A stretch of DNA of 64,000 nt from Actinomycetota bacterium. GTDB taxonomy: Bacteria; Actinomycetota; Acidimicrobiia; Acidimicrobiales; SZUA-35. Of this stretch, positions 2,069 to 40,507 are shown one piece after another. The DNA lies in NCBI GenBank assembly GCA_039201605.1, contig JBCCRO010000021.1, positions 7,738 through 71,737 of the forward strand, in the 5' to 3' direction. Below the pieces are notes generated by a model that was not told where the DNA came from, searched no databases, and saw nothing but the letters and a program-made list of their open reading frames with translations. How positions within the stretch are numbered: position 1 is the first letter of the stretch; each line of letters opens with the position of its first letter. Both the position numbers and the translations under genes were made by a program.

Positions 2069-2141
2069 TGGTCGGGACCGGCGTCGATCCGGTGACCTAC
2101 CGCTTTTCAGGCGGTCGCTCTGCCAACTGAGCTACCCGACC
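2069..2141 (-). tRNA. tRNA-Phe(GAA)
   Basis: Reverse complement GGTCGGGTAGCTCAGTTGG...CTGAAAA...GATCGACGCCGGTCCCGACCA folds as a cloverleaf; anticodon GAA. Confidence 0.93.
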
Positions 2142-2308
2142 GTGTGTCCCGGCTCCGCCGGGACCCCAGGTTTCGACGCTTGTCGAAACCTGCAGCACAG
2201 GCGACTCCGAGCGGCCCTCGGCTGCCGCCGAAGGCCTGTCGAGGTCTGGCTTCGCCAAAACTCGTGGAACCCGCCAGAGGCGGGCCCAGGAGCCCTGCCG
2301 GGCTCCCG

Positions 2309-2383
2309 CGGTCCTGACGAGATTTGAACTCGCGACCTCCGCCTTGACAGGGCGGCGTGCACTCCAGACTGCACTACAGGACC
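2309..2383 (-). tRNA. tRNA-Asp(GTC)
   Basis: Reverse complement GGTCCTGTAGTGCAG...CTGTCAA...GTTCAAATC...CAGGACCG; anticodon GTC. Confidence 0.95.
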
Positions 2384-2463
2384 TAGTTGTACCGCTGGGG
2401 GATCAAACCCCGGCGAAACGCTATCGCGTCGCTCCGCAGATCACTCTCCGGAACTCTGACTTG

Positions 2464-2536
2464 CACCCCCAACGGGATTCGAACCCGTGTTGCCTGCGTG
2501 AAAGGCAGGTGTCCTAGGCCACTGAACGATGGGGGC
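2464..2536 (-). tRNA. tRNA-Glu(TTC)
   Basis: Reverse complement GCCCCCATCGTTCAGTGG...CTTTCAC...GGTTCGAATCCCG; anticodon TTC. The Glu-Asp-Phe order is typical of actinobacteria. Confidence 0.95.
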
Positions 2537-30995: not shown

Positions 30996-31109
30996 CTCGT
31001 TCGTTCCTTGGTGAATGCGGGGTGTGTGTGACAGGCCCGGGGCGGCGGAGGGAACCGTGTCGGGCAAGGAGTGAGTGGTGGTCGGCTGTGTCGTCCGCAG
31101 TGCGGTCCG

Positions 31110-31150
31110 AAAAGCACAAAAGCCGCTGGGGGCTTGTGCTCCCAGCGGCT
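31110..31150 (-). terminator. Rho-independent attenuator in the whiB7 leader
   Basis: Minus-strand stem AGCCGCTGGG/CCCAGCGGCT followed by TTTGTGCTTTT. Confidence 0.85.
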
Positions 31151-31174
31151 CGGTGTGAGGTTCTGTACCTGTTG

Positions 31175-31435
31175 TCAGGTCTTGAACCTCCAGCGCTGGG
31201 AGTGGTCGGTGGTGCCGAACTTCGGGGTATGGACCCAGTAGCCCTTCATGAAGCTGGCGATGCCATCGGCGTTCATGCCGACGGCGGCCGTCTCCGGGCG
31301 AGCGGTCCACAGGCCCGAAAGCGCACAACGCACGGCCTCGCGGATGGCACCGGGGATGAGGCGCACCTGCACCCGGGAATCGGCGAAGACGCTCACGTCG
31401 AGGAGTTCGACACGAGTGGTGAGTGTTGCTGCCAT
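31175..31435 (-). CDS. whiB7 upstream ORF (leader peptide)
   Basis: 86-aa ORF with GAAAGGGG RBS, ending about 25 nt before the terminator stem. Confidence 0.7.
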   Translation of the reverse strand: MAATLTTRVELLDVSVFADSRVQVRLIPGAIREAVRCALSGLWTARPETAAVGMNADGIASFMKGYWVHTPKFGTTDHSQRWRFKT

Positions 31436-31544
31436 TGGCCGACCCCTTTCCGTTTCGATGGTCGTCTCGCCGCGCAGATCATCCCGCGCAGGGCGTCTCG
31501 CTCCGATGAACGAGCAGAATCACCGTCGTATGAATCGGCGAGCG

Positions 31545-31561
31545 TGTCAAACGATTTAATC
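31545..31561 (-). promoter_or_regulatory. -35 TTGACA preceded by an AT-rich WhiB7-binding-like tract
   Basis: Minus strand reads GATTAAATCGTTTGACA; no clear -10 identified. Confidence 0.55.
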
Positions 31562-31586
31562 GCGGCGGCCGCTACCGTCGCGGCCG

Positions 31587-32336
31587 ATGCCCGCGTCCAC
31601 CCCCGCTCCCGATGCCGCCGAGGCGCCCGTCGGGCGTCGATTCACCGGTCACCGCAAGGTCAGATTGGGCGACGCCGCGGCCGACGGCCGGCTCCGGTTC
31701 GACGCCCTGACCCGCCACACCCAGGACGTCTCCGACGACGACACCACCGACGCCGGACTGTCGGCCGAGCTGGGGTGGGTGGTCCGCCGGACCACGGTCT
31801 CGGTCGAACGGCATGCCCGGCTCGGGGAGGAGCTGGCGGTCACCACCTACTGCTCGGGCCTCGGGAAACGCTGGGCCGACCGGCGACTCGACATCGAGGG
31901 CTCCGAGGGTGCCCGGATCACCGTGGTGACGCTCTGGATCTGCATCGACGTCGCCGCCGCCCGTCCCGCCCCGCTCAGCGCCCAGTTCCTCGACCTCTAC
32001 GGACCTGCGGCCCAGGGGCGGACGGTGAGCGCCCGACTCCAGCACCCGAAGGCGCCGGCCGAGGGCGCCGAGACGTGGTCGTGGCCGCTGCGGGTGGCCG
32101 ACATCGACACCCAGGGCCACGTCAACAACGCCGCCTACTGGGCCGTGCTGGAGGAGGCTCTCGGCGGGGTGGCCCCCGAGGGCGCCCACGAGGCCCGCAT
32201 CGAGTACGGGGCCGGCCTCACCCTCGACGACGAGGTGACCGTGCACCACGCCGAGGTGGACGGGGTACGCCTGTGGTGGCTGCTCAACGGCGCCGGAGAG
32301 ACGGCGGCGTCGATCTCACTCGCCGTGCCCGACTGA
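31587..32336 (+). CDS. acyl-ACP thioesterase family protein
   Basis: GRLRFDAL, WVVRRT and DIDTQGHVNNAAYW. Confidence 0.85.
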   Translation: MPASTPAPDAAEAPVGRRFTGHRKVRLGDAAADGRLRFDALTRHTQDVSDDDTTDAGLSAELGWVVRRTTVSVERHARLGEELAVTTYCSGLGKRWADRRLDIEGSEGARITVVTLWICIDVAAARPAPLSAQFLDLYGPAAQGRTVSARLQHPKAPAEGAETWSWPLRVADIDTQGHVNNAAYWAVLEEALGGVAPEGAHEARIEYGAGLTLDDEVTVHHAEVDGVRLWWLLNGAGETAASISLAVPD

Positions 32337-32375
32337 TCGCGGCCCGCCGGCCCGCCCGACCGAGCCGGCCGGGGC

Positions 32376-33011
32376 TCAGCTCGACGTGGCCTCGGCCGCC
32401 GCCTCGGGGGTCGTCGTCTCGCCACCGGCGTCGGTCTTGCGGCGGTCGCCGCCCTGTGGGGCCGTCGGATCGGCGCCGACGGGGAGGAAGACCTTCTCCC
32501 GGTAGAAGCGGAGCTCGTTCACGCTCTCGGTGATGTCGTCGAGGGCCCGGTGGCCGGCGTCCTTGCGGGGCGCGGTGGCCAGGACGTCGGGGTACCAGCG
32601 GCGAGCGAGCTCCTTGATGGTCGAGACGTCCACCGACCGGTAGTGGAGGAACTCCTCGATGTCGTTGAGCTGGGCGGCGAGGAACCGCCGGTCCATCCCG
32701 ATCGAGTTGCCGCACAACGGCACCGAGCGCGGGGTGTCGATGTGTTCCTTGAGAAAGGCGAGGGTCTGGGCCCCGGCCTCCTCCAGGGTGATCGTCGAGG
32801 CTTTGATCTGCTCCAACAGGCCCGACTTCGTGTGCATGTCGACAACGACGTCGTCCATGGCCGACAGCTCCTCATCGGTGGCCGACACGACGAGGTCGGG
32901 GCCGTGGGCGACGATGTTGAGTTCGTCGTCGGTGATGAGGGTTGCGATCTCGACGATCACGTGGCGGGCCGGGTCGAGCCCGGTCATTTCGAGGTCCATC
33001 CAAACCAGCAA
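32376..33011 (-). CDS. orn: oligoribonuclease
   Basis: LVWMDLEMTGLD, PLCGNS, HYRSVDVSTIKELARRW and HRALDDI; TTG start, probably leaderless. Confidence 0.95.
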   Translation of the reverse strand: MLVWMDLEMTGLDPARHVIVEIATLITDDELNIVAHGPDLVVSATDEELSAMDDVVVDMHTKSGLLEQIKASTITLEEAGAQTLAFLKEHIDTPRSVPLCGNSIGMDRRFLAAQLNDIEEFLHYRSVDVSTIKELARRWYPDVLATAPRKDAGHRALDDITESVNELRFYREKVFLPVGADPTAPQGGDRRKTDAGGETTTPEAAAEATSS

Positions 33012-33059
33012 GAGCAAAGATCCTAGTGGGCTCGACGGCGATCGCCCTAACCTTCCCGA

Positions 33060-33512
33060 GTGCTCGACATCCCGCTTCTGCGCCTCGACGACGACCCCGA
33101 CCGACCGCTCGCCGCTCCGCGTCGCATCCGGGCTGGTGACGCCGCTGCCGACCTCCCGTCCCGGCACCCCGTCGAGCTGGCTCCGGGGGCCCGGGAACTG
33201 GTGCCGACCGGGTTCGCCGTGGCCATCCCGGCCGGCCACTGCGGCCTGATCCTGCCCCGGTCGGGCCTCGCCCTCCGGCACGGGATCACCGTGCTCAACG
33301 CTCCCGGCCTCATCGACTCGGGCTACCGGGGGGAGCTGAAGGTCCTCCTGTGGAACACCGGGCAGGAGTCCGTCACCCTCGACCGCGGCGAACGGGTGGC
33401 GCAGTTGCTGGTGGTGGCGGTCGGCGCCTCCCAGCTCACCGAGGTGGCGGTGCTGCCCGACGCCCCCGACGATCGGGGCGGCGCCGGGTTTGGGTCGTCC
33501 GGACGACGCTGA
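33060..33512 (+). CDS. dut: dUTP diphosphatase
   Basis: PRSGLA, NAPGLIDSGYRGE and RGGAGFGSSG. Confidence 0.95.
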   Translation: MLDIPLLRLDDDPDRPLAAPRRIRAGDAAADLPSRHPVELAPGARELVPTGFAVAIPAGHCGLILPRSGLALRHGITVLNAPGLIDSGYRGELKVLLWNTGQESVTLDRGERVAQLLVVAVGASQLTEVAVLPDAPDDRGGAGFGSSGRR

Positions 33513-33770
33513 GCCGTCGGCCCCGGGGCGTCGGCCCCGGTGGGGGTCGGAACGGGTGATCCGGACCGCCTCCGCCAAGAGGGGCCATCCGGCCTATCCA
33601 GATTTTTCGCCTGATCGTCGTTGCCTACTACAGCGGAGGCGTGGGGCCCAGAGGCCGAACCGCATCCGCACGCCATAGGAGCAGAAAGGAACGGGACTTT
33701 TGACCCCCAACCTTGCCGACACCACGGGCAGCGTGCTGGCTGTCCGGAAGTGGTAGAAGGAGAACAGCAG

Positions 33771-33869
33771 ATGAGCGAAGTCAACAAGATGCGAGTGCAG
33801 GCCACGACGGCGGTGATCGGGCTCAGTTGCCTTGTTCTCGCCATGGGAGCCCCCTGGAAGTTCGGCTGA
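33771..33869 (+). CDS. 32-aa signal-peptide-like small protein ending GAPWKFG
   Basis: Strong GAAGGAGA RBS; MSEVNKMRVQATTAVIGLSCLVLAMGAPWKFG; followed by a 16-bp hairpin. Confidence 0.7.
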   Translation: MSEVNKMRVQATTAVIGLSCLVLAMGAPWKFG

Positions 33870-33890
33870 TCGGGTAGCCGATCGCCACGA

Positions 33891-33926
33891 CGAAGAGAGC
33901 CGGCGGATCACCGCCGGCTCTCTTCG
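33891..33926 (+). terminator. perfect 16-bp stem-loop between the peptide gene and the GGDEF-EAL gene
   Basis: CGAAGAGAGCCGGCGG-ATCA-CCGCCGGCTCTCTTCG. Confidence 0.8.
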
Positions 33927-34000
33927 CGTGTGAGCAAGATCTCAACCGTCTCCTCGGGCGAGCCGATAGCTTCCACGGGCCGTCGGCCCGAGGACGACGC

Positions 34001-36043
34001 ATGAGCCAGACGATCACGAGAGCCCCGCGAAATCACCGACTGACGATTCTGCTGATCGGGACCGTCATCGCCGGCGGTGCGCTGCTCATGCAGTCGTTCC
34101 GCAATCTCGACGGGGAGCCGTTCTACGGGCGGCACCCGGCGATCTACCTCGTCTTCGTCTTCCTGCTGTTCGCCACCGAACTGCAGCCGGTGCCCTCCCT
34201 CACCGATGACACCGAGCTCACCGCCTCGTGGGCCTTCGCCTTCACCCTGCTGTTGATCTCCCCGATCGCCGGTTCGGTGGTGGCGGTGATGGCGACCTCG
34301 ATCGCCAACGACCTCCTGGGGCGGAAGCGGATCGACCGCATGCTGTTCAACGCCGCCCAGTTCGCCCTCTCCCTCGTCGGCGGCGGCCTCGCCGGCTACC
34401 TGATCGCCGACATCGACAGCGTGGCCGACGGCGGCCCGGTCACCGTCCGGTGGCTGGTCGGCGTGCTGGTGGCCTGCGCCGTCGGCTTCGGGGCCAACAG
34501 CGTCTTCGTCAGCGTGGCCGTGGCCCTGCACACCGGGCTCCCGGTCGCCGAGATGCTGCGTCGCTCGGTGGGGATCAACCTCGGCATGGACGGCCTGCTG
34601 CTCGCCTTGGCCCCGGTGTTCGCCGTGATCGCCCTGCAGTCGCTGTTCCTCGTGCCCCTGCTCCTGGTCACGGTGTTCATCATCTTCAAGAGCGCGGCAC
34701 TGGCCCTGCGCAACAAGCACGAGGCCACCCACGACCAGCTCACCGGCATTCCCAACCGGCGGATGTTCGAAGACCACCTCGCCCTCCTGATGGAGGCGTC
34801 GCGGCGGGGGAAGCGTTCCTTCGCCCTGGTCCAGATCGACCTCGACGGCTTCAAGGGCATCAACGATCGGCTCGGCCACCACTACGGCGATCAGGTGCTG
34901 AAGGCGGTGGCGACCCGGCTGGTGAGCGACGAGCGCCTGAACGACCAGTGCGCCCGCCTGGGCGGCGACGAGTTCGCCCTGCTGTTCCTCGACGTGGCCT
35001 CGGTCGACGACGCCCAGGCGATCGCCGAGCGGGCCCTGGGCCGGATCTCCGACAGCCTCGAGATCGAGGGCGTGCCCCTCCGGGTCGGGGCCAGCCTGGG
35101 GGTGGCGATCTTCCCCGACCACGGCGAGGACCCCCAGCGGCTGATGCACCACGCCGACATGGCGATGTACGAGGCCAAGCGGGCCGGGGGCGGCGTGTGC
35201 GTCTATTCGGCGACGTCGGACGACGACAGCCCGGGCCGTATCGAACTCCTGGCCGACCTGGCCAACGCCGTGGAGGGCGACCAGTTCACCCTCGACTACC
35301 AGCCCAAGGTCGACATCAGTACCGGCCGCATCGCCATGGTCGAGGCCCTCGTCCGCTGGCATCATCCCGCCTACGGCACCGTCCCGCCCGGTTGGTTCAT
35401 GCCCCAGGCCGAGCAGACCGACCTGATCACCAGCCTGACCGACCACATCATCGACCAGGCCGCACACCAGATCCAGATCTGGCGTCGCTCCGGCATCGAG
35501 ATGCCGGTCGCGGTGAACGTGTCGGCCCGCAACCTCCACGATCTCCGCTTCCCGGGCCGGGTGCGCGACACGCTCGACCGGTACGACCTGCCCGGCTCGC
35601 TCCTCGAAGTCGAGGTGACCGAGAACTCGGTGATGGAGGACCCGCGCCGCTCGGCCCTCGTCCTCACCGAGTTGCGCGAGATCGGTATCACGGTGGCCAT
35701 CGATGATTTCGGCACCGGCTACTCGTCGCTGTCGACGCTGCGCGACCTCACCCTCGACCGGATCAAGATCGACCGCTCCTTCGTCACCAGCCTGGCCTCG
35801 GACGACGGCGACCTCACCATCGCCCGCTCGGTGATCGAGCTGGCTCAGAACCTGGGCCTGGCCACCGTGGCCGAGGGGGTCGAGACCCTCGACGTGCTGG
35901 AGATCCTGCGGGAGCTCGGCTGCGACGAGGTGCAGGGCTTCCTGCTCTCCCATCCGCTGTCCGCCGACGCCATCCACCCGCTGCTCCTGGCCGGGCGCAT
36001 CGAGATGGCGACCCCTGTACCCCAGTCGACCGGAGGTGGCTGA
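34001..36043 (+). CDS. integral-membrane sensor GGDEF-EAL protein (diguanylate cyclase/phosphodiesterase)
   Basis: About 230-aa multi-TM N-terminus; HDQLTG, RxxD I-site, RLGGDEF, VEALVRW, IDDFGTGYSS and AEGVE. Confidence 0.95.
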   Translation: MSQTITRAPRNHRLTILLIGTVIAGGALLMQSFRNLDGEPFYGRHPAIYLVFVFLLFATELQPVPSLTDDTELTASWAFAFTLLLISPIAGSVVAVMATSIANDLLGRKRIDRMLFNAAQFALSLVGGGLAGYLIADIDSVADGGPVTVRWLVGVLVACAVGFGANSVFVSVAVALHTGLPVAEMLRRSVGINLGMDGLLLALAPVFAVIALQSLFLVPLLLVTVFIIFKSAALALRNKHEATHDQLTGIPNRRMFEDHLALLMEASRRGKRSFALVQIDLDGFKGINDRLGHHYGDQVLKAVATRLVSDERLNDQCARLGGDEFALLFLDVASVDDAQAIAERALGRISDSLEIEGVPLRVGASLGVAIFPDHGEDPQRLMHHADMAMYEAKRAGGGVCVYSATSDDDSPGRIELLADLANAVEGDQFTLDYQPKVDISTGRIAMVEALVRWHHPAYGTVPPGWFMPQAEQTDLITSLTDHIIDQAAHQIQIWRRSGIEMPVAVNVSARNLHDLRFPGRVRDTLDRYDLPGSLLEVEVTENSVMEDPRRSALVLTELREIGITVAIDDFGTGYSSLSTLRDLTLDRIKIDRSFVTSLASDDGDLTIARSVIELAQNLGLATVAEGVETLDVLEILRELGCDEVQGFLLSHPLSADAIHPLLLAGRIEMATPVPQSTGGG

Positions 36044-36810
36044 TGATCACTGCCGTCTGTTTCCTGTTGTTGGCCGCCACCGTGCCGTTATTGCGGGGGA
36101 GGCTCTCGCTGCTCGGCCGCATCCGGATCCAGGCCTGGTGGACGATCGTCCTGGCCCTGGTGATCCAGGTCTTCCTGCTCGAGATCTTCGCCGGCACCTT
36201 CGGCGGGTTGCTCGCCGCAACCATCCACCTGCTCAGCTACGGGCTGGCCCTGGTGTTCATGTGGCACAACCGCCACATCACCGGGATGGGCCTGACCGTC
36301 TTCGGCGGCCTGCTCAACCTGATCGCCATCGCCGCCAACGGCGGGGTGATGCCGGCCCAGCGTAAGGCGCTGGAGACCGCGGGCATCATCGTCGACTCGC
36401 CGGAGTTCGAGAACTCGGCCGTCATCGACGACGCCCGACTGTGGTTCCTGGGTGACATCTTCGCCATCCCCGAGGGGATCCCGTTCGCCAACGTGTTCAG
36501 TATCGGCGACATCATCCTCGTCTTCGGCGCCGGCATCACCGTCCACACGATCAGTCGATCGCACCTGGGCCGGCTGATCGTGCGCCTCAACCCACTCGCC
36601 ACCGCCGACGCCACCGCCGACCTCGGGCTCGCCGTCGACCAGGGGCCGAGCGTCGATCATGGGCTCGCTGTCGACCAGGGGCCGAGCGTCGACCAGTGGC
36701 CGACCGCCGGTGGCGGAGCGACGGCCGGAGCCACGTCGACCGGGACGATCGGGGCCGAGGAGGCCCCCGCCCCGAGCGACGAGCCGAACGAGCAGCGGCA
36801 GCCGCTCTAG
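36043..36810 (+). CDS. DUF5317 family membrane protein
   Basis: GGLLNLIAIAANGGVMP, LWFLGDIF and VFSIGDIIL; coupled TGATG junction. Confidence 0.8.
   Translation: MITAVCFLLLAATVPLLRGRLSLLGRIRIQAWWTIVLALVIQVFLLEIFAGTFGGLLAATIHLLSYGLALVFMWHNRHITGMGLTVFGGLLNLIAIAANGGVMPAQRKALETAGIIVDSPEFENSAVIDDARLWFLGDIFAIPEGIPFANVFSIGDIILVFGAGITVHTISRSHLGRLIVRLNPLATADATADLGLAVDQGPSVDHGLAVDQGPSVDQWPTAGGGATAGATSTGTIGAEEAPAPSDEPNEQRQPL
36625..36696. repeat. 36-bp tandem duplication in the DUF5317 tail
   Basis: GLAVDQGPSVD occurs twice. Confidence 0.85.
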
Positions 36811-36823
36811 GGGCGGCCGAGCG

Positions 36824-37213
36824 CTACTCGGCCGGGCCGGCGCCGTTGGCCGACGGCCCGATGGTGGAGTCGGTCAGCACCATCGAGATGCCGGTGGTGT
36901 CGACGGTGACCTCGTCGACCATGGGCGAGAGGACCTCGGTCACCTCGTCCTGGGCCGCCGGTCCCAGCGGGGCGTCGGGATTGCCGACGGTGATCGACAG
37001 CTGATCGGGCTCCCACTGGGCGTCGAGCCGGATGCGACCGGGACCGCGAAGCGCGGCGACCGACTCGTCGACGGCGAGGCGGAGCTTCTCGACATCGGCG
37101 ATGTCGACCCCCAGGCGGAGGGCCAGACCGGCCACGGCGACGCGACCGATGCGGGAGAAATCGGGCGACGCCGGAAACGAGACACTCACCCGATCTTTGG
37201 TGCCGTCGTTCAT
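36824..37213 (-). CDS. RsbW/anti-sigma-like small protein (degenerate HATPase fold)
   Basis: FPASPDFSRIGRVAVAGLA...DVEKLRLAVDE; the ATP-binding boxes look incomplete. Confidence 0.6.
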   Translation of the reverse strand: MNDGTKDRVSVSFPASPDFSRIGRVAVAGLALRLGVDIADVEKLRLAVDESVAALRGPGRIRLDAQWEPDQLSITVGNPDAPLGPAAQDEVTEVLSPMVDEVTVDTTGISMVLTDSTIGPSANGAGPAE

Positions 37214-37221
37214 CGGTGCCA

Positions 37222-38217
37222 CTATCCCATCTTTTCCTCGCCGGGTGGCAGTTCCCGAACAACGTCACGCGGGTCGTGGTCGGTGCGTAGTCCGAGGTAG
37301 ACGGGGTGGCGGATGTTGCCGGTCTCGGGCCATTCGCCGTAGCCGACCTCGACCACCCGCTCGGGCTCCACCCACCGGGGAGGACGGTCGACCTCGGGCA
37401 CGGGATCGAAGGGGCAGTCATCGGTCGGGGTCAGGACGGCCTGCAGGCGGTGGCGGTCGCCGTCGGTCAGGCCGCTGCCCACCGCCCCGGCGCACACGAA
37501 CCGGCCGTCGTGGTGGACGCCGATCAGGAGCGAGCCGATGGAGCCGGTCAACGCCCCCTGGCCGGGAAGCCATCCCCCGACCACGAACTCCTGCTGCCGA
37601 CGGACCTTGATCTTGATCCACTGCTTCGATCGGGCGCCCGGCTCGTAGCGACTGTCGAGCCGCTTGGCCACGACGCCCTCCAACCCCCGCTCCCGGGCCA
37701 GGTCGACGAGGGCCTGGCCCGAACCGGTCGAGGCCGGCGGCACCCGCCACGCCGGGCCGTCGTCCACCAGTTCGGTGAGGAGACGGCGGCGGGTCTCGTA
37801 GGGGAGATCGAGGAGGGAGTTGCCGTCGAGGGCCAGGAGGTCGAAGACGATGAACACGACCGGGTGGGTGGTGACCAGGGTCGGGAGCGGATCGGTGACG
37901 TGCATCCGGTGCTGCAGCCGGGGGAAGGACGGGCGGTCGCCGTCGAACACCACCACCTCCCCGTCGAGGACGGCGCTTGTGGATACTGCGTCACGCAGGG
38001 TGGCCAGCTCCGGATAGTGGCTGGTCACATCCCGCGCCGATATCGATCGGAGGGTGAGCGGACGATGTTCGTCGGACGGATGGGTGGTGGCCTGGAGTCG
38101 AACGCCGTCCCACTTGAGCTCGAAGGCCCACCCGTCTCCGGCCGGCAGCGTTCCGAGCGCCGCCTTCATCGGAGCGACCCAACCCGGGGTGCTTCCGGGA
38201 GCAAGCGACGCGTTCAC
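37222..38217 (-). CDS. ATP-dependent DNA ligase, LigD ligase-domain type
   Basis: ELKWDGVR, LDGEVV, FDLL, EGVVAKR, WIKIK and RHPVYLGLRTD; start uncertain (38217 or 38169). Confidence 0.9.
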   Translation of the reverse strand: MNASLAPGSTPGWVAPMKAALGTLPAGDGWAFELKWDGVRLQATTHPSDEHRPLTLRSISARDVTSHYPELATLRDAVSTSAVLDGEVVVFDGDRPSFPRLQHRMHVTDPLPTLVTTHPVVFIVFDLLALDGNSLLDLPYETRRRLLTELVDDGPAWRVPPASTGSGQALVDLARERGLEGVVAKRLDSRYEPGARSKQWIKIKVRRQQEFVVGGWLPGQGALTGSIGSLLIGVHHDGRFVCAGAVGSGLTDGDRHRLQAVLTPTDDCPFDPVPEVDRPPRWVEPERVVEVGYGEWPETGNIRHPVYLGLRTDHDPRDVVRELPPGEEKMG

Positions 38218-38251
38218 TGGATTAAGGCTAGAGGTGACTTTTGACAAGGGG

Positions 38252-38282
38252 TTGACTCTCCCTACCGACCGGTCGGTAGGCT
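38252..38282 (+). promoter_or_regulatory. leaderless promoter with a perfect 20-bp palindromic operator
   Basis: TTGACT...CCTACCGACCGGTCGGTAGG overlapping the -10 TAGGCT, 7 nt before the GTG start. Confidence 0.75.
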
Positions 38283-38289
38283 GGGGGTC

Positions 38290-39252
38290 GTGGTACTCGA
38301 CGCTGACACCTCCCTCCTCGCCGAGCTCGAACCCGAGGCCGAACGTTTGCTCGAACGGCACCTCTCGGCTGTCAAGAACTGGCACCCGCACACCTATGTG
38401 CCCTACTCCCGGGGGGAGGACTTCCCGCCCGACTACGAATGGCAACCTTCCGAGTCCGCGATGCCCGACGACGTCAGAAGCGCGCTCTACGTGAACCTGC
38501 TGACCGAGGACAACCTGCCGTACTACTTCCGCGACATCGAGCGGATGTTCGGCAAGGACGGCGCCTGGGGTGAGTGGGTCCGCCGGTGGACGGCCGAGGA
38601 AGGCCGCCACTCGATCGTGATCCGCGACTACCTCACCGTCACCCGGGCCATCGACCCCCTCGCCCTCGAAGAGGGGCGGATGGCGCAGATGAGCGGCGGT
38701 CAGGTGCCGGAGCCGCCGACGGCGGCCGACGGCCTGATCTATGTGACGCTGCAGGAGCTCGCCACCCGGATCTCCCATCGCAACACCGGGACCAAGATCC
38801 GCAACGTCGACGAGGTCGGCTCCAGGATCATGAACCGGGTGGCGCAGGACGAGAACCTGCACTTCCTCTTCTACCGGGACGTGGCCAGCGCCATCATCGA
38901 GGTCGATCCGAGTCAGGCCGTCGAGGCGATGGAGCGTCAGATCTGCGGCTTCACCATGCCGGGCGACGGCATCCCCGGTTTCAAGGAGCACGCCAAGCTC
39001 ATCGCCAACGCCGGTATCTACGATCTGGCCGCCCACTACACCCAGATCCTCAAGCCGATCGTGCTCACCCACTGGAAGCTGCCCGACCTCACCGGCCTGA
39101 CCGCCGAGGCCGAGGCCGCCCGGGATCGGACGATGAGGTACATCGAGAAGTCGAGGAAGGTGGCCGAAAGGCTGACCGACCGGCGCAAGTCCCGGGAGGA
39201 AGCCCGGGCCCAGGCCGAGGCCGAAGGCAAGCCGGTCGCCGTCAACGCCTGA
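38290..39252 (+). CDS. acyl-ACP desaturase (DesA1-like di-iron enzyme)
   Basis: NLLTEDNLP, WTAEEGRH, QELATRISHRNTG and DENLH. Confidence 0.92.
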   Translation: MVLDADTSLLAELEPEAERLLERHLSAVKNWHPHTYVPYSRGEDFPPDYEWQPSESAMPDDVRSALYVNLLTEDNLPYYFRDIERMFGKDGAWGEWVRRWTAEEGRHSIVIRDYLTVTRAIDPLALEEGRMAQMSGGQVPEPPTAADGLIYVTLQELATRISHRNTGTKIRNVDEVGSRIMNRVAQDENLHFLFYRDVASAIIEVDPSQAVEAMERQICGFTMPGDGIPGFKEHAKLIANAGIYDLAAHYTQILKPIVLTHWKLPDLTGLTAEAEAARDRTMRYIEKSRKVAERLTDRRKSREEARAQAEAEGKPVAVNA

Positions 39253-39298
39253 TCCACGGCGCAACCCGGCCCCACGGTGGGCACTAGGGTCGTCATCG

Positions 39299-40507
39299 AT
39301 GCCAGTCACCCCTGACGACGTGGCCCGCGCCGCCTCGGTCATCGCCGACGACGTGGTGCGCACGCCCACGCAGACCTCGAGCACGCTCTCGGACCTGACC
39401 GGGGCCGAGATCGTGGTCAAGTTCGAGAACCTGCAGTTCACGGGCTCGTTCAAGGATCGGGGCGCCGCCAACCACCTCCGCTCGCTCGGGGCCGACGGCA
39501 TCGCCCGGGGCGTCGTGGCGATGTCGGCCGGCAACCACGCCCAGGGCGTGGCCTACCACGCCGCCCGCCTCGGTACCGAGGCCGTGATCGTCATGCCGGA
39601 ATCGGCGCCGTTCAGCAAGGTCACCAACACCGGGTCCCTCGGGGCCAGGGTGGTGCAGGCCGGCTCCAACCTGGCCGAGTGTCGGATGGAGCTGGAGCTC
39701 CTCCAGGCGGCCCACGGGTACCACTTCGTGCCGCCCTACGACGACGCCGCCGTGATCGCCGGCCAGGGCACCGTCGCCCTCGAGATGCTGGAGGACCGGC
39801 GCGATCTCGACGTCCTGGTCGTGCCCTTCGGCGGCGGGGGCCTGCTGTCGGGGATGGCCTTGGCGGCCAAGGCGGTCCGGCCCGACATCGAGATCATCGG
39901 CGTGCAGGTCGGGGCCTACCCCCAGGCCGCCTCCCGCTTCCATGGGCGCCCCATCGAGCCCGAGCCCACCGAGACCGTGGCCGACGGCATCGCGGTGAAG
40001 GGCCTGGGCGATCTGACGACCCCGATCGTGGCCGACCTCGTCGACGATGTGATCGTGGTGTCCGAGCGCGACACCGAGCGGGCGATCGCCCTCTATGCCG
40101 AGATCGAGAAGACGGTGGCCGAGGGGGCCGGGGCGGTGCCGCTGGCTGCGGTGTTGGCCGATAGGCAGCGGTTCGCCGGTCGGAAGGTCGGCCTCGTCCT
40201 CTCGGGGGGCAACATCGACAGCCGCATTCTGGCCTCGGTGCTCACCCGGGCTCTCGTCCGCACCGATCGGGTCTCGGCCCTGCGGATCACGGTGTCCGAC
40301 CTCCCGGGCCAGCTGGCCCCGATCGTCGAGACCATCGCCGGTCGGGGGGCCAACGTCATCGAGATCGAGCACCGGCGCACCTTCGACGACATCTCGGTCC
40401 GCACCGTCAACATCGACCTGGTGATCGAGACCCGCGATCCGGCCCACCGCGACGCCGTGGTGGCCGACCTGGCCGCCCTGGGCCACACCGTCGACGTCGT
40501 GGCCTGA
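39299..40507 (+). CDS. ilvA: threonine ammonia-lyase with C-terminal ACT domain
   Basis: ENLQFTGSFKDRGA, SAGNHAQG, GGGGL and LSGGNID. Confidence 0.9.
   Translation: MPVTPDDVARAASVIADDVVRTPTQTSSTLSDLTGAEIVVKFENLQFTGSFKDRGAANHLRSLGADGIARGVVAMSAGNHAQGVAYHAARLGTEAVIVMPESAPFSKVTNTGSLGARVVQAGSNLAECRMELELLQAAHGYHFVPPYDDAAVIAGQGTVALEMLEDRRDLDVLVVPFGGGGLLSGMALAAKAVRPDIEIIGVQVGAYPQAASRFHGRPIEPEPTETVADGIAVKGLGDLTTPIVADLVDDVIVVSERDTERAIALYAEIEKTVAEGAGAVPLAAVLADRQRFAGRKVGLVLSGGNIDSRILASVLTRALVRTDRVSALRITVSDLPGQLAPIVETIAGRGANVIEIEHRRTFDDISVRTVNIDLVIETRDPAHRDAVVADLAALGHTVDVVA

What the first reader, a model, noticed from the sequence alone, without database searches (positions are those of the whole stretch)
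33756..36810. Candidate peptide-signalling cassette controlling c-di-GMP: secreted-type micro-peptide + membrane GGDEF-EAL receptor + LspA-like DUF5317
Seen in sequence: a strong RBS (GAAGGAGA) precedes a 32-aa ORF, MSEVNKMRVQATTAVIGLSCLVLAMGAPWKFG. It has a basic n-region, a hydrophobic h-region and a short GAPWKFG tail. A 16-bp hairpin follows, then a multi-TM GGDEF-EAL protein with intact GGDEF, RxxD and EAL/DDFGTG motifs, coupled by TGATG to a DUF5317 membrane protein. Established: signal peptidase II (LspA) has GNxxDR and FNxAD motifs with two catalytic Asp, and precursor + membrane peptidase + membrane receptor is the layout of agr-type quorum sensing. Inference: GGLLN...LGD...VFSIGD in DUF5317 echoes LspA. 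It may cleave the precursor and release a roughly 5-7-aa peptide sensed by the TM domain, giving quorum-type control of c-di-GMP instead of a histidine kinase. I know of no description of such a system, but I could not search.
Basis: partly seen in the sequence, partly recalled or inferred. Interest (0 to 1): 0.87.

Follow-up and report, generated by a model that had tools for sequence, protein, structure and literature searches.

The report
Tiny membrane protein beside c-di-GMP sensor
A 32-residue membrane protein gene, a membrane-anchored c-di-GMP enzyme and a protein of unknown function (DUF5317) are kept together as a gene trio in many Actinomycetota, which points to an undescribed three-part membrane sensor; that the small protein is a secreted quorum signal is possible but not shown.

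Summary
It consists of a ribosome-binding site, a 32-codon ORF (33771..33869), a 16-bp hairpin, a multi-pass GGDEF-EAL gene with intact motifs, and a DUF5317 gene whose start overlaps the GGDEF-EAL stop.

The small ORF is a conserved gene. In 89 DUF5317 loci (87 distinct), 83 have a homologous membrane sensor next door, 75 have the small ORF and 74 have all three. The small protein is 28-35 aa: a basic N-end, about 17 hydrophobic residues, then G-A-[P/G]-x-K-[W/F] and a stop. Synonymous codon changes show it is coding.

The sensor domain is a divergent MASE9. Its model has the fold of ECF-transporter S components (Z 15.6 to 10.3 for the first 20 rows, then 6.2). The same domain also heads histidine kinases in five distinct loci.

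DUF5317 folds confidently into five membrane helices with no match in the PDB. Homology to LspA is not supported (hhalign probability 4%), and the genome has its own lspA. In four loci DUF5317 is fused to an MFS transporter.

Best reading: a three-part membrane sensor complex with a resident microprotein (confidence 0.42). An agr-like processed signal remains possible (0.2). I found no paper that names DUF5317.

The parts
33700..33756 (+). Upstream micro-ORF (uORF1), 18 codons plus stop, TTG start. The product ends in A-V-R-K-W. A Shine-Dalgarno-like GAAAGGA lies at 33685-33691. Its stop TAG lies 14 nt before the microprotein start.
   Evidence: of 14 loci of the window's clade, 12 have an ORF of 16-21 aa ending V/I-R-K-W-stop (one ends L-K-W-F-stop), 8-17 nt before the microprotein ATG. 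Codons vary synonymously (R: CGG, CGC, AGG; V: GTC, GTT). In L078, L104 and L141 the same place holds a full-length second microprotein. The DNA blocks are seen.
33757..33764 (+). Ribosome-binding site GAAGGAGA of the microprotein gene.
   Evidence: Purine-rich GGAG/AGGA-type strings precede most of the 64 inferred starts listed.
33771..33869 (+). Microprotein gene, 32 aa: basic N-end, one hydrophobic span (residues 11-27), and the tail M-G-A-P-W-K-F-G.
   Evidence: invariant A11, T12, T13, M25, G26, A27, P28, K30 in 10 sequences. (codon-position entropy 0.83/0.61/1.13; G26 has 3 codons, A27 has 4, P28 has 3). (hydropathy; N flank +2.7 and tail +1.1 net charge over 47 peptides). (family-wide occurrence).
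33891..33926 (+). 16-bp GC-rich hairpin between the microprotein stop and the sensor gene, with no U tract. A smaller hairpin at 33868-33883 starts at the stop codon.
   Evidence: z -6.4; the 70 nt after the stop fold with z <= -2 in 22 of 44 loci, against 3 of 44 control stretches inside the sensor gene. The stems differ in sequence between loci.
34001..34705 (+). N-terminal membrane domain of the GGDEF-EAL protein (residues 1 to about 235). It is a divergent MASE9 with the fold of an ECF-transporter S component.
   Evidence: 34 of 51 aligned homologues match Pfam MASE9 at E <= 1 (best 1.5e-7); the window protein itself does not; model pLDDT 92.9, pTM 0.89; ranks 1-20 are all ECF S components (4m5b Z 15.6, rmsd 3.4, 188 aligned), and rank 21 has Z 6.2.
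34724..35188 (+). GGDEF domain (residues 242-396) with GGDEF and the RxxD inhibitory site.
35255..35956 (+). EAL domain (residues 419-652) with EALVR, DDFGTG and EGVE.
36043..36810 (+). DUF5317 gene (255 aa): five predicted membrane helices, an outer loop of about 50 residues, and a low-complexity C-terminal tail. Its start overlaps the stop of the GGDEF-EAL gene.
   Evidence: PF17248, 2e-28. (pLDDT 90.4, pTM 0.83; helices 2-16, 32-48, 55-75, 82-98, 154-170). (invariant residues). (start/stop overlap inferred in 9 of 9 close loci).

Best explanation
The four reading frames form one membrane signalling module.

Shown:
- A 28-35-residue single-pass microprotein is encoded next to a sensor whose membrane domain is MASE9-like and has the fold of an ECF-transporter S component.
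- The same module includes DUF5317, a five-helix membrane protein. By the positive-inside rule its invariant polar residues lie on the outer face.
- The sensor carries either GGDEF-EAL, as in this window, or a histidine kinase.

Inferred topology: the microprotein inserts with its N-end in the cytoplasm. Its conserved G-A-P-x-K-W tail then sits at the outer membrane surface.

Inferred mechanism: the microprotein stays in the membrane as a subunit or intramembrane ligand of a sensor-DUF5317 complex. The state of that complex sets the balance between c-di-GMP synthesis and breakdown by the cytoplasmic GGDEF-EAL part. That state could be a small ligand bound in the S-component-like pocket, or the availability of the microprotein.

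Inferred expression logic: a short, strongly initiated microprotein message is followed by a hairpin. The hairpin either ends most transcripts or makes sensor translation depend on microprotein translation. The overlapping stop/start makes DUF5317 translation depend on sensor translation.
For: Co-occurrence:
- All three genes are present in 9 of 9 close loci, while the upstream dut and orn genes of the window are not found there.
- In 89 loci (87 distinct): DUF5317 89, sensor 83, microprotein 75, all three 74.
- Three different gene orders keep the trio together. These are co-directional; DUF5317 divergent; and microprotein-DUF5317-sensor in L180.
- In a sample of 301 genomes of the phylum, all 27 genomes with the microprotein are among the 121 with DUF5317. 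This count includes three unpublished genomes, G337, G435 and G548.

The ORF is coding and specific:
- Synonymous codons encode invariant residues.
- A strict tail pattern hits 42 of 16,548 six-frame segments in 888 kb. 38 of the 68 loci with an adjacent GGDEF gene have a strict match upstream of that gene.

The whole microprotein is constrained:
- The N-end motif K-x-R-x-Y/F-R, a fixed hydrophobic span of about 17 residues, and the tail are all conserved.

The sensor:
- S-component fold.
- One of the 51 homologues also hits Pfam ECF-ribofla_trS at 5e-7.
- The authors who defined MASE9 proposed that its ligand binds within the membrane (bioRxiv 10.1101/2021.11.05.467447, passages read).
- The same module sits next to histidine kinases, so it acts on the membrane domain and not on c-di-GMP chemistry.

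The overlapping stop/start of sensor and DUF5317 is seen in the window and inferred in 9 of 9 close loci.
Against: - No physical contact is shown.
- No expression data exist for this organism.
- The invariant Asp, Asn, Ser and His residues of DUF5317 look more like an enzyme or transporter site than a scaffold.
- DUF5317 is fused to MFS transporters in four loci, and the peptide gene is duplicated in tandem in several loci. Both fit a processed, exported product as well.
- In L128 the microprotein and DUF5317 stand without an adjacent sensor. The microprotein's first partner may therefore be DUF5317.
- The profiles for the sensor and the microprotein were built from the same loci that were then counted.
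- Many loci are kin.
Confidence: 0.42

Rival explanations
1. One reading: an agr-like autoinducer loop. DUF5317 is an intramembrane peptidase that cuts the microprotein near G-A-P. The tail of 5-7 residues (or a hydrophobic fragment) is released and then sensed by the MASE9-like domain. This would give density-dependent control of c-di-GMP, or of a kinase in the kinase variants.
For: - The trio mirrors precursor, polytopic processing protein and polytopic receptor, including kinase variants in five distinct loci.
- DUF5317 has two invariant Asp (D138, D156) plus invariant Asn, Ser and His. By the positive-inside rule these lie on the outer face, where the tail should sit.
- DUF5317 is fused to exporter-type MFS_3/MFS_1 proteins in L123, L178, L179 and L182. 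This recalls peptidase-exporter fusions.
- Tandem or extra peptide copies occur in L070, L071, L078, L104, L111 and L141.
- A hairpin after a short structural gene is common for precursor genes (recalled knowledge).
- Positions x and the residues after K-W vary between lineages.
Against: - There is no similarity of DUF5317 to any known peptidase: Pfam gives only PF17248 and hhalign against LspA gives 4.1%.
- The tail core G-A-[P/G]-x-K-W is conserved across classes, unlike typical specificity-determining pheromones.
- The cytoplasmic N-end motif is conserved too.
- No Cys is conserved, so there is no thiolactone.
- The overlapping sensor and DUF5317 genes suggest a fixed-ratio complex.
Confidence: 0.2
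2. A transport-linked sensor. DUF5317, alone or fused to an MFS protein, moves or binds a small molecule. The S-component-like MASE9 domain reads that activity or binds the same compound. The microprotein is an accessory subunit of the transporter-like part. This would resemble the small membrane partners of metal-type ECF S components, or flux-sensing kinase-transporter pairs.
For: - The best structural matches of the sensor domain are NikM and CbiM type S components (Z 15.6, 15.2 and 13.1). These work with small auxiliary membrane proteins (recalled knowledge).
- DUF5317-MFS fusions occur in four loci.
- The microprotein stays next to DUF5317 when no sensor gene is adjacent, as in L128.
Against: - No substrate is indicated.
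- DUF5317 has only five helices and no match to any transporter fold.
- No ECF T or A component was seen among the genes next to the trio in the window. The ORFs of 31000-40000 were listed, and the flanking genes scanned gave other families. This was not searched systematically.
Confidence: 0.15
3. The small ORFs act only in cis. uORF1 and the 32-codon ORF would be leader peptides. Their translation, together with the hairpin, would set transcription read-through or translation of the sensor gene. The peptide itself would have no function.
For: - Two consecutive tiny ORFs each end in K-W-stop, and the stop of the first lies in the ribosome-binding region of the second.
- In about a dozen of 43 loci the hairpin starts within a few bases of the stop and ends 0-10 nt before the sensor start.
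- The hairpins are significant in 22 of 44 loci.
Against: - The hydrophobic span is kept in length and character over wide divergence, while its sequence varies. Leader peptides do not need this.
- A 32-residue chain would still be inside the ribosome tunnel at termination, so it could not report membrane insertion (inference).
- The ORF persists where the next gene is DUF5317 (L180) or where no sensor follows (L128).
- Duplicated copies occur.
- In 22 of 44 loci the 70 nt after the stop do not fold significantly better than shuffled sequence.
Confidence: 0.1

Closest known systems
agr quorum sensing (AgrD precursor, AgrB membrane peptidase, AgrC polytopic receptor kinase); recalled knowledge
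   Same: A small precursor-sized gene, a polytopic membrane protein of about 200 residues and a receptor with a polytopic membrane sensor are encoded together. Kinase-output variants exist here too.
   Different: - There is no Pfam match of the peptide or of DUF5317 to any family other than PF17248.
- No Cys is conserved.
- The output in the window is GGDEF-EAL.
- The kinases are of the HisKA type with a GAF domain, and no response regulator follows them.
- The peptide is one full membrane span with a conserved tail.
Small membrane-protein regulators of sensors and transporters (MgrB with PhoQ, SafA, AcrZ, KdpF); recalled knowledge. The topic appeared in the search listing.
   Same: A single-pass protein of about 30 residues is encoded beside its likely partner, and conservation covers the whole length.
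   Different: Here there is a third conserved partner (DUF5317). The sensor has an S-component fold, and the family spans several classes of Actinomycetota. No binding has been shown.
ECF-transporter S components (RibU, ThiT, BioY, FolT, NikM/CbiM)
   Same: The fold of the sensor's membrane domain: Z 15.6 to 10.3 for the first 20 rows, covering model residues 13-217. One homologue hits Pfam ECF-ribofla_trS.
   Different: The domain is fused to GGDEF-EAL or to a kinase. Sequence identity is 6-15%. No ECF T or A genes were seen among the flanking genes examined in the window. It is a sensor domain, not a shown transporter.
MASE9 domain (Galperin and Chou, bioRxiv 10.1101/2021.11.05.467447; passages read)
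   Same: An integral-membrane sensory domain found with HD-GYP and GGDEF-EAL, for which ligand binding inside the membrane was proposed. 34 of 51 homologues match the Pfam model.
   Different: The passages read mention no partner genes, no kinase fusions and no S-component fold. The window protein itself is below the Pfam threshold.
Signal peptidase II (LspA, Pfam PF01252)
   Same: A short local echo. P-x-x-N-V-F-S-x-G-D at the start of the last helix aligns with W-P-V-F-N-V-A-D of LspA (28 columns). Both sites face the outer leaflet.
   Different: - hhalign probability is 4.1%.
- The G-N-L-x-D-R Asp is absent from DUF5317.
- DUF5317 has five helices in its model; LspA is recalled to have four.
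- The genome has its own lspA.
Peptidase-containing exporters of peptide precursors (recalled knowledge)
   Same: In four loci DUF5317 is the N-terminal part of an MFS exporter-type protein encoded beside the small ORF.
   Different: No peptidase activity or fold is known for DUF5317, and the transporter is MFS rather than ABC.

Membership tests
DUF5317 (Pfam PF17248) | Match to the family profile above its curated cut-off | tested here: met
   E 2e-28, 99.7 bits against a cut-off of 25, residues 27-166.
Signal peptidase II / LspA (Pfam PF01252) | Sequence or profile similarity to the family | tested here: not met
   no PF01252 match at E <= 0.01; hhalign of 57 DUF5317 against 18 LspA sequences gives probability 4.1% over 28 columns.
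Signal peptidase II / LspA (Pfam PF01252) | Two catalytic Asp in the G-N-x-x-D-R and F-N-x-A-D motifs | tested here: not met
   In the LspA alignment of this lineage, N125, D128, R129 and N155, D158 are invariant. DUF5317 has G-G-L-L-N-L-I-A with no Asp at the first site. Only D156 aligns with the second Asp. Two other invariant Asp exist (D138, D156), so an Asp pair as such is present.
Signal peptidase II / LspA (Pfam PF01252) | LspA fold | tested here: inconclusive
   With the model of pLDDT 90.4, the best Foldseek E is 2.9. The best VIA Z is 6.9 over 53 residues, and the matches are helical hairpins only.
agr system (AgrB, AgrD, AgrC) | AgrB-type or AgrD-type sequence families, and a conserved Cys for the thiolactone | tested here: not met
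   the peptide has 0 Pfam families and DUF5317 has only PF17248; the Cys at position 20 is present in 1 of 10 sequences.
MASE9 (Pfam PF20972) | Match of the window protein itself to the family profile | tested here: not met
   there is no MASE9 match for residues 1-245 even at E <= 1.
MASE9 (Pfam PF20972) | Homology through aligned relatives that match the profile | tested here: met
   34 of 51 aligned membrane domains match MASE9 (best 1.5e-7); 9 of the 11 matches listed there reach or exceed the 24.3-bit cut-off (best 30.8 bits), and two fall below it (L133 at 20.4, L178 at 23.7).
ECF-transporter S component | Six-helix S-component fold | tested here: met
   ranks 1-20 are all S components, with Z from 15.6 (188 aligned, rmsd 3.4) to 10.3; the next row has Z 6.2. 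Foldseek probability is 0.96-1.00 but E is 0.065 or weaker.
ECF-transporter S component | Works with ECF T and A components | not tested
   No systematic search was made. The flanking genes in the window that were scanned gave other families.
GGDEF-EAL c-di-GMP enzymes | Profile matches and catalytic motifs of both domains | tested here: met
   Of 72 sensors with a long cytoplasmic part, 34 have GGDEF, RxxD, EAL and DDFGTG together.

The most novel reading that the evidence does not exclude
A self-encoded membrane peptide is the ligand of an S-component-like receptor. DUF5317, in some lineages fused to an MFS exporter, would process or present the microprotein. The MASE9 domain, a former vitamin- or metal-binding transporter module turned sensor, would bind its G-A-P-x-K-W end. 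This would give Actinomycetota a peptide-based cell-to-cell or envelope-state signal. That signal would feed directly into c-di-GMP turnover and, in sister loci, into histidine kinases.
Probability: 0.2. Interest if true: 0.9.

Novelty: new variant of a known kind. Interest (0 to 1): 0.7.

Why it matters
- It gives the first functional context for two uncharacterised families. DUF5317 is present in 121 of 301 sampled genomes of the phylum. The MASE9 sensor domain is the other family.
- It adds an unannotated microprotein family.
- It predicts that MASE9 has the fold of ECF S components, which suggests what kind of ligand pocket to look for.
- The module is switchable between c-di-GMP and kinase outputs, so it should define a general membrane input mechanism.
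- The two leading readings, resident subunit and released signal, can be separated by simple experiments in any cultivable carrier.

Tried and rejected
- **Rfam.** An E-value scan of 33000-37500 gave no match at E <= 1. A gathering scan of the whole window gave nothing in the locus.
- **PDB sequence search** with the DUF5317 profile gave only two chance rows at E about 0.8.
- **Fold searches with the DUF5317 model.** Foldseek gave no row at E <= 0.001. VIA-align wide gave nothing above Z 6.9, and no LspA, other peptidase, ECF T component or transporter row. This does not exclude any of these families.
- **Complex prediction** with sensor domain, DUF5317 and microprotein gave no answer (score 0.30, mark 0.32). 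It is not evidence either way.
- **The look-up of sequencing runs** listed no RNA holder.
- **The search for homologous proteins** refuses a 32-aa query. With the sensor domain it returned only 32 close GGDEF-EAL relatives, none with a precomputed MASE9 tag.
- **ESM Atlas.** DUF5317 returns only DUF5317 clusters. The peptide returns unnamed clusters of 32-34 aa at 0.89, which is a lead only.
- **Promoter scan.** No sigma-70-type site in 33450-34050.
- **Association** of a Glu in the microprotein span with polar residues in the sensor is confounded by clade and was dropped.
- **Lipobox.** G-L-S-C in the window peptide was considered. It was rejected because the Cys is not conserved and the -3 and -2 residues do not fit the recalled pattern.
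- **A structured-RNA reading of the conserved leader** (11 predicted pairs, covariation term -0.05) was replaced by the coding reading of uORF1.
- **Weak peptide hits in the order sample** (E 3.6e-4 to 5.1e-3, L043-L046) have no sensor beside them and were dropped.
- **Literature.** 'DUF5317' and 'PF17248' give 0 papers. 'MASE9' gives 2, of which one is relevant. Searches on small membrane proteins with diguanylate cyclases, peptide pheromones with GGDEF, and MASE with ECF S components gave nothing on such a module. Supplements, for example Figure S5 of the MASE9 preprint, were not seen and may show neighbourhoods or architectures.

Full report
**1. The observation**

- GAAGGAGA (33757-33764) precedes an ATG at 33771. 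That ATG opens a 32-codon ORF ending at 33869.
- A 16-bp GC-rich stem follows, pairing 33891-33906 with 33911-33926. The region folds far better than shuffles: z -6.4, and 0 of 200 shuffles fold as well.
- The next gene (34001..36043) encodes 680 residues with Pfam GGDEF (3.8e-45) and EAL (8.5e-68).
- That protein has GGDEF at residue 321, an RxxD site at 312, EALVR at 448, DDFGTG at 568 and EGVE at 625.
- Its first 235 residues hold six hydrophobic segments and match no Pfam family.
- Its TGA shares one base with the ATG of a DUF5317 gene, 36043..36810 (PF17248, 2e-28).
- Names attached to close homologues place the organism among Acidimicrobiales known from metagenome-assembled genomes.

**2. 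The small ORF is a gene**

A search with the DUF5317 protein in 41 related genomes found it in 19. I fetched 17 of those loci.
- All 9 loci with a close DUF5317 (44-75% identity over the tblastn match) have the GGDEF-EAL gene directly upstream. All 9 also have a 31-32-codon ORF upstream of that.
- The dut and orn genes that flank the window's copy gave no hit in any of the 17 loci. The trio, not the wider neighbourhood, is what is kept.
- Ten peptides align without gaps. A11, T12, T13, M25, G26, A27, P28 and K30 are invariant.
- In twelve 32-codon versions, variability by codon position is 0.83, 0.61 and 1.13 bits. The invariant G26, A27 and P28 are written with 3, 4 and 3 different codons. 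That is the signature of selection on a protein.

**3. The wider census**

A scan of one genome per species with a DUF5317 alignment found 529 confirmed relatives among 600 pattern matches. The best 80 loci were kept. They come from Acidimicrobiales, Solirubrobacterales and Thermoleophilia, Frankiales and other Actinomycetes.

Sensor adjacency:
- 68 of the 80 loci have a GGDEF-EAL gene within 3 kb whose membrane domain resembles the window's.
- That gene is either co-directional and ending at the DUF5317 start, or divergent and starting 400-550 nt away.

The small ORF:
- A strict pattern was defined as at least 15 of 17 hydrophobic residues, then G-A-[PG]-x-[KR]-[WFL], then 0-3 residues and a stop.
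- It matches 42 of 16,548 six-frame segments in these 888 kb. 38 of the 68 loci have a strict match upstream of the sensor gene.
- A profile iterated on these loci finds 68 ORFs at E < 1e-3 in 64 of 80 loci. Nearly all of them stop within a few residues after the tail motif. In L127 the motif itself is lost, and a few have a longer tail.
- Most inferred starts are preceded by a GGAG/AGGA-type string.

Adding the window and 8 loci from other families gives these counts over 89 rows:
- DUF5317: 89
- Sensor domain: 83
- Microprotein: 75
- All three: 74

Caveats on these counts:
The distinct counts are therefore 87, 81, 73 and 72.
- Most rows without a peptide or sensor are short or cut contigs (L067, L076, L114, L115, L117, L118, L126).
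- The sensor and peptide profiles were built from these same loci.
- Many rows are kin.

Two further checks:
- In an even sample of 301 genomes of the phylum, DUF5317 is present in 121. The peptide profile hits 27 at E <= 1e-3, and all 27 are among the 121. This count includes the unpublished genomes G337, G435 and G548.
- In a sample of 301 genomes of the order, the first, narrower profile found 6 strong matches (E < 1e-10). Weak ones that I inspected had no sensor beside them.

**4. What the microprotein looks like**

Across 47 aligned members the plan is:
- an optional short N-end;
- K-x-R-[LIMV]-[YF]-[RA];
- about 17 hydrophobic residues;
- G-A-[P/G]-x-K-[W/F] plus 0-2 residues.

Lengths are 28-35 residues. 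The net charge is +2.7 before the hydrophobic span and +1.1 after it. By the positive-inside rule (established knowledge) the N-end is cytoplasmic and the tail lies at the outer surface. This topology is an inference.

**5. The sensor**

- 34 of 51 aligned membrane domains match Pfam MASE9 at E <= 1 (best 1.5e-7). The window's copy is too divergent to match on its own.
- MASE9 was defined as a promiscuous integral-membrane sensor found with HD-GYP and GGDEF-EAL. The authors suggested that its ligand binds within the membrane (bioRxiv 10.1101/2021.11.05.467447; I read the passages around the term).
- In five distinct loci the same domain, sometimes followed by GAF, heads a HisKA-HATPase_c histidine kinase. 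In each of them DUF5317 is divergent beside it. The loci are L101, L109 (the same contig as L176), L111 (the same contig as L177), L133 and L179.
- The peptide is found in three of the five: L109, L111 and L179.
- No response regulator follows the kinase. The next gene is a convergent uvrB in L111.
- The AlphaFold model of residues 1-245 is confident (pLDDT 92.9, pTM 0.89).
- Foldseek ranks ECF-transporter S components first, with probability 0.96-1.00 but E of 0.065 or weaker.
- In the second look by VIA-align, the first 20 rows are all S components. These include NikM 4m5b (Z 15.6, rmsd 3.4, 188 residues), 4m58 (Z 15.2), RibU 5kbw (Z 14.8), then FolT, BioY, ThiT and PanT down to Z 10.3. The next row has Z 6.2.
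- One homologue also matches Pfam ECF-ribofla_trS at 5e-7.
- I conclude that this sensor domain has the S-component fold, that of a membrane-embedded binder of small ligands. I found no paper that says so.

**6. DUF5317 and the LspA idea**

The model is confident (pLDDT 90.4, pTM 0.83). It has five membrane helices (2-16, 32-48, 55-75, 82-98, 154-170), a short helix at 21-26, and a loop from 99 to 153 with short strands.

In 20 aligned sequences 34 columns are invariant. They include Q42, H62, Y66, N76, N92, N99, G101, M103, P104, F122, N124, S125, G137, D138, P147, N150, S153, G155, D156 and H168. By charge distribution most of these lie on the outer face. That is an inference, but it puts them where the microprotein tail should be.

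The link to LspA fails at the sequence and profile level:
- There is no PF01252 match.
- hhalign against 18 LspA sequences of this lineage gives probability 4.1%. It aligns only the stretch around D156 with the F-N-V-A-D motif.
- The first LspA Asp has no counterpart in DUF5317.
- The genome has its own lspA on another contig, as do 29 of 31 related genomes.
- The two fold searches give no clear match to anything: Foldseek best E 2.9, and VIA best Z 6.9 over 53 residues. That leaves the fold question open rather than closed.

In four loci (L123, L178, L179, L182) DUF5317 is the N-terminal part of an MFS_1/MFS_3 transporter protein.

**7. Expression signals**

Hairpin:
- In 22 of 44 loci the 70 nt after the microprotein stop fold with z <= -2, and in 19 with z <= -3. 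The corresponding counts are 3 and 0 of 44 for control stretches inside the sensor gene.
- The stems differ in sequence between loci and lack a consistent U tract.
- In about a dozen loci the stem ends 0-10 nt before the sensor start.
- Two readings are open: a terminator without a U tract that keeps the short message abundant, or a structure that ties sensor translation to microprotein translation.

uORF1:
- Upstream, what looked like a conserved leader is another tiny ORF. In the window it runs 33700..33756 with a TTG start and 18 residues ending A-V-R-K-W.
- Its stop lies 14 nt before the microprotein ATG.
- Twelve of 14 loci of this clade have such an ORF, with synonymous variation in the Val and Arg codons.
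- Three more distant loci have a full-length second microprotein at that place.
- It looks like a shortened paralogue. Its role is unknown.

**8. How it most likely works**

Shown:
- The trio is conserved through three gene orders.
- The small ORF is under protein-level selection.
- The sensor has the S-component fold.
- The output domains can be exchanged.
- DUF5317 has a compact five-helix model with a conserved polar surface.

Inferred: the three proteins form a membrane complex in which the microprotein is a resident subunit or intramembrane ligand. The state of the complex sets the balance of c-di-GMP synthesis and hydrolysis.

I prefer this reading (0.42) for three reasons:
- Conservation covers the whole microprotein, including its cytoplasmic motif and a fixed span length.
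- The tail core does not diversify.
- The sensor and DUF5317 genes overlap.

The rivals:
The enzyme-like invariants of DUF5317, its fusion to exporters and the tandem peptide copies fit it well.
- A transport-linked sensor has 0.15.
- A purely cis-acting leader role has 0.1.
- The rest is unknown.

**9. Novelty**

No paper in the searchable library names DUF5317 or PF17248. MASE9 appears in one relevant paper, without partners in the passages read. Its supplementary figures were not available to me.

The general logic has precedents: membrane sensors with small membrane partners, or with a precursor and a processing protein. I therefore rate this a new variant of a known kind. Three elements appear undescribed: the microprotein family, the link of DUF5317 to MASE9 sensors, and the S-component fold of MASE9.

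**10. Limits**

- There are no expression data for this organism.
- There is no interaction evidence.
- The structures are predictions.
- Counts come from metagenome-assembled genomes with kinship among rows.
- Start codons of the small ORFs are inferred.

Noticed in passing
window 33700-33756 (+): A second tiny ORF (18 aa, TTG start, ending A-V-R-K-W) has its own Shine-Dalgarno-like site. Its stop lies 14 nt before the microprotein start. It is present in 12 of 14 loci of the clade, with synonymous codon changes. In L078, L104 and L141 a full-length second microprotein takes its place.
   Followed up: partly
window 34001-34735 (+): The MASE9-like membrane domain is predicted to have the fold of ECF-transporter S components (Z 15.6 to 10.3 for 20 rows, then 6.2). 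I found no paper stating this.
   Followed up: partly
L123:888-2870, L178:2304-4307 (-), L179:889-3504 (-), L182:1926-3794: DUF5317 is fused at the N-end of MFS_1/MFS_3 transporter proteins of 623-872 aa, one of them with C-terminal HEAT repeats. The small ORF lies beside each of them.
   Followed up: partly
L109, L111, L101, L133, L179: Histidine kinases with MASE9, with GAF in some, then HisKA and HATPase_c, sit divergent from DUF5317. No response regulator gene follows them.
   Followed up: partly
window 32376-33050 (-): An RNase_T-family exonuclease (Pfam 6e-28), probably oligoribonuclease, lies about 0.7 kb upstream of the c-di-GMP module. Oligoribonuclease degrades pGpG, the product of EAL enzymes (recalled). 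The adjacency is not conserved: no hit in 17 related loci.
   Followed up: partly
L070:3073-3186, L071:3258-3371: An extra microprotein copy of 38 aa has a longer tail after the K-F (six more residues). It lies about 0.6 kb upstream of the regular copy.
   Followed up: no
L075, L094, L098, L104: A second GGDEF-EAL gene lies upstream of the trio. In L104 it has its own MASE9-like domain.
   Followed up: no
window 38599-38666 (-): Rfam ASdes sRNA match (44.8 bits, gathering score 40), antisense within the acyl-ACP desaturase gene 38290-39252.
   Followed up: no
window 36824-37222 (-): A 132-aa ORF convergent with DUF5317 has no Pfam match. It is followed by an ATP-dependent DNA ligase gene.
   Followed up: no
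window 2069-2536 (-): Three tRNA genes in a row.
   Followed up: no
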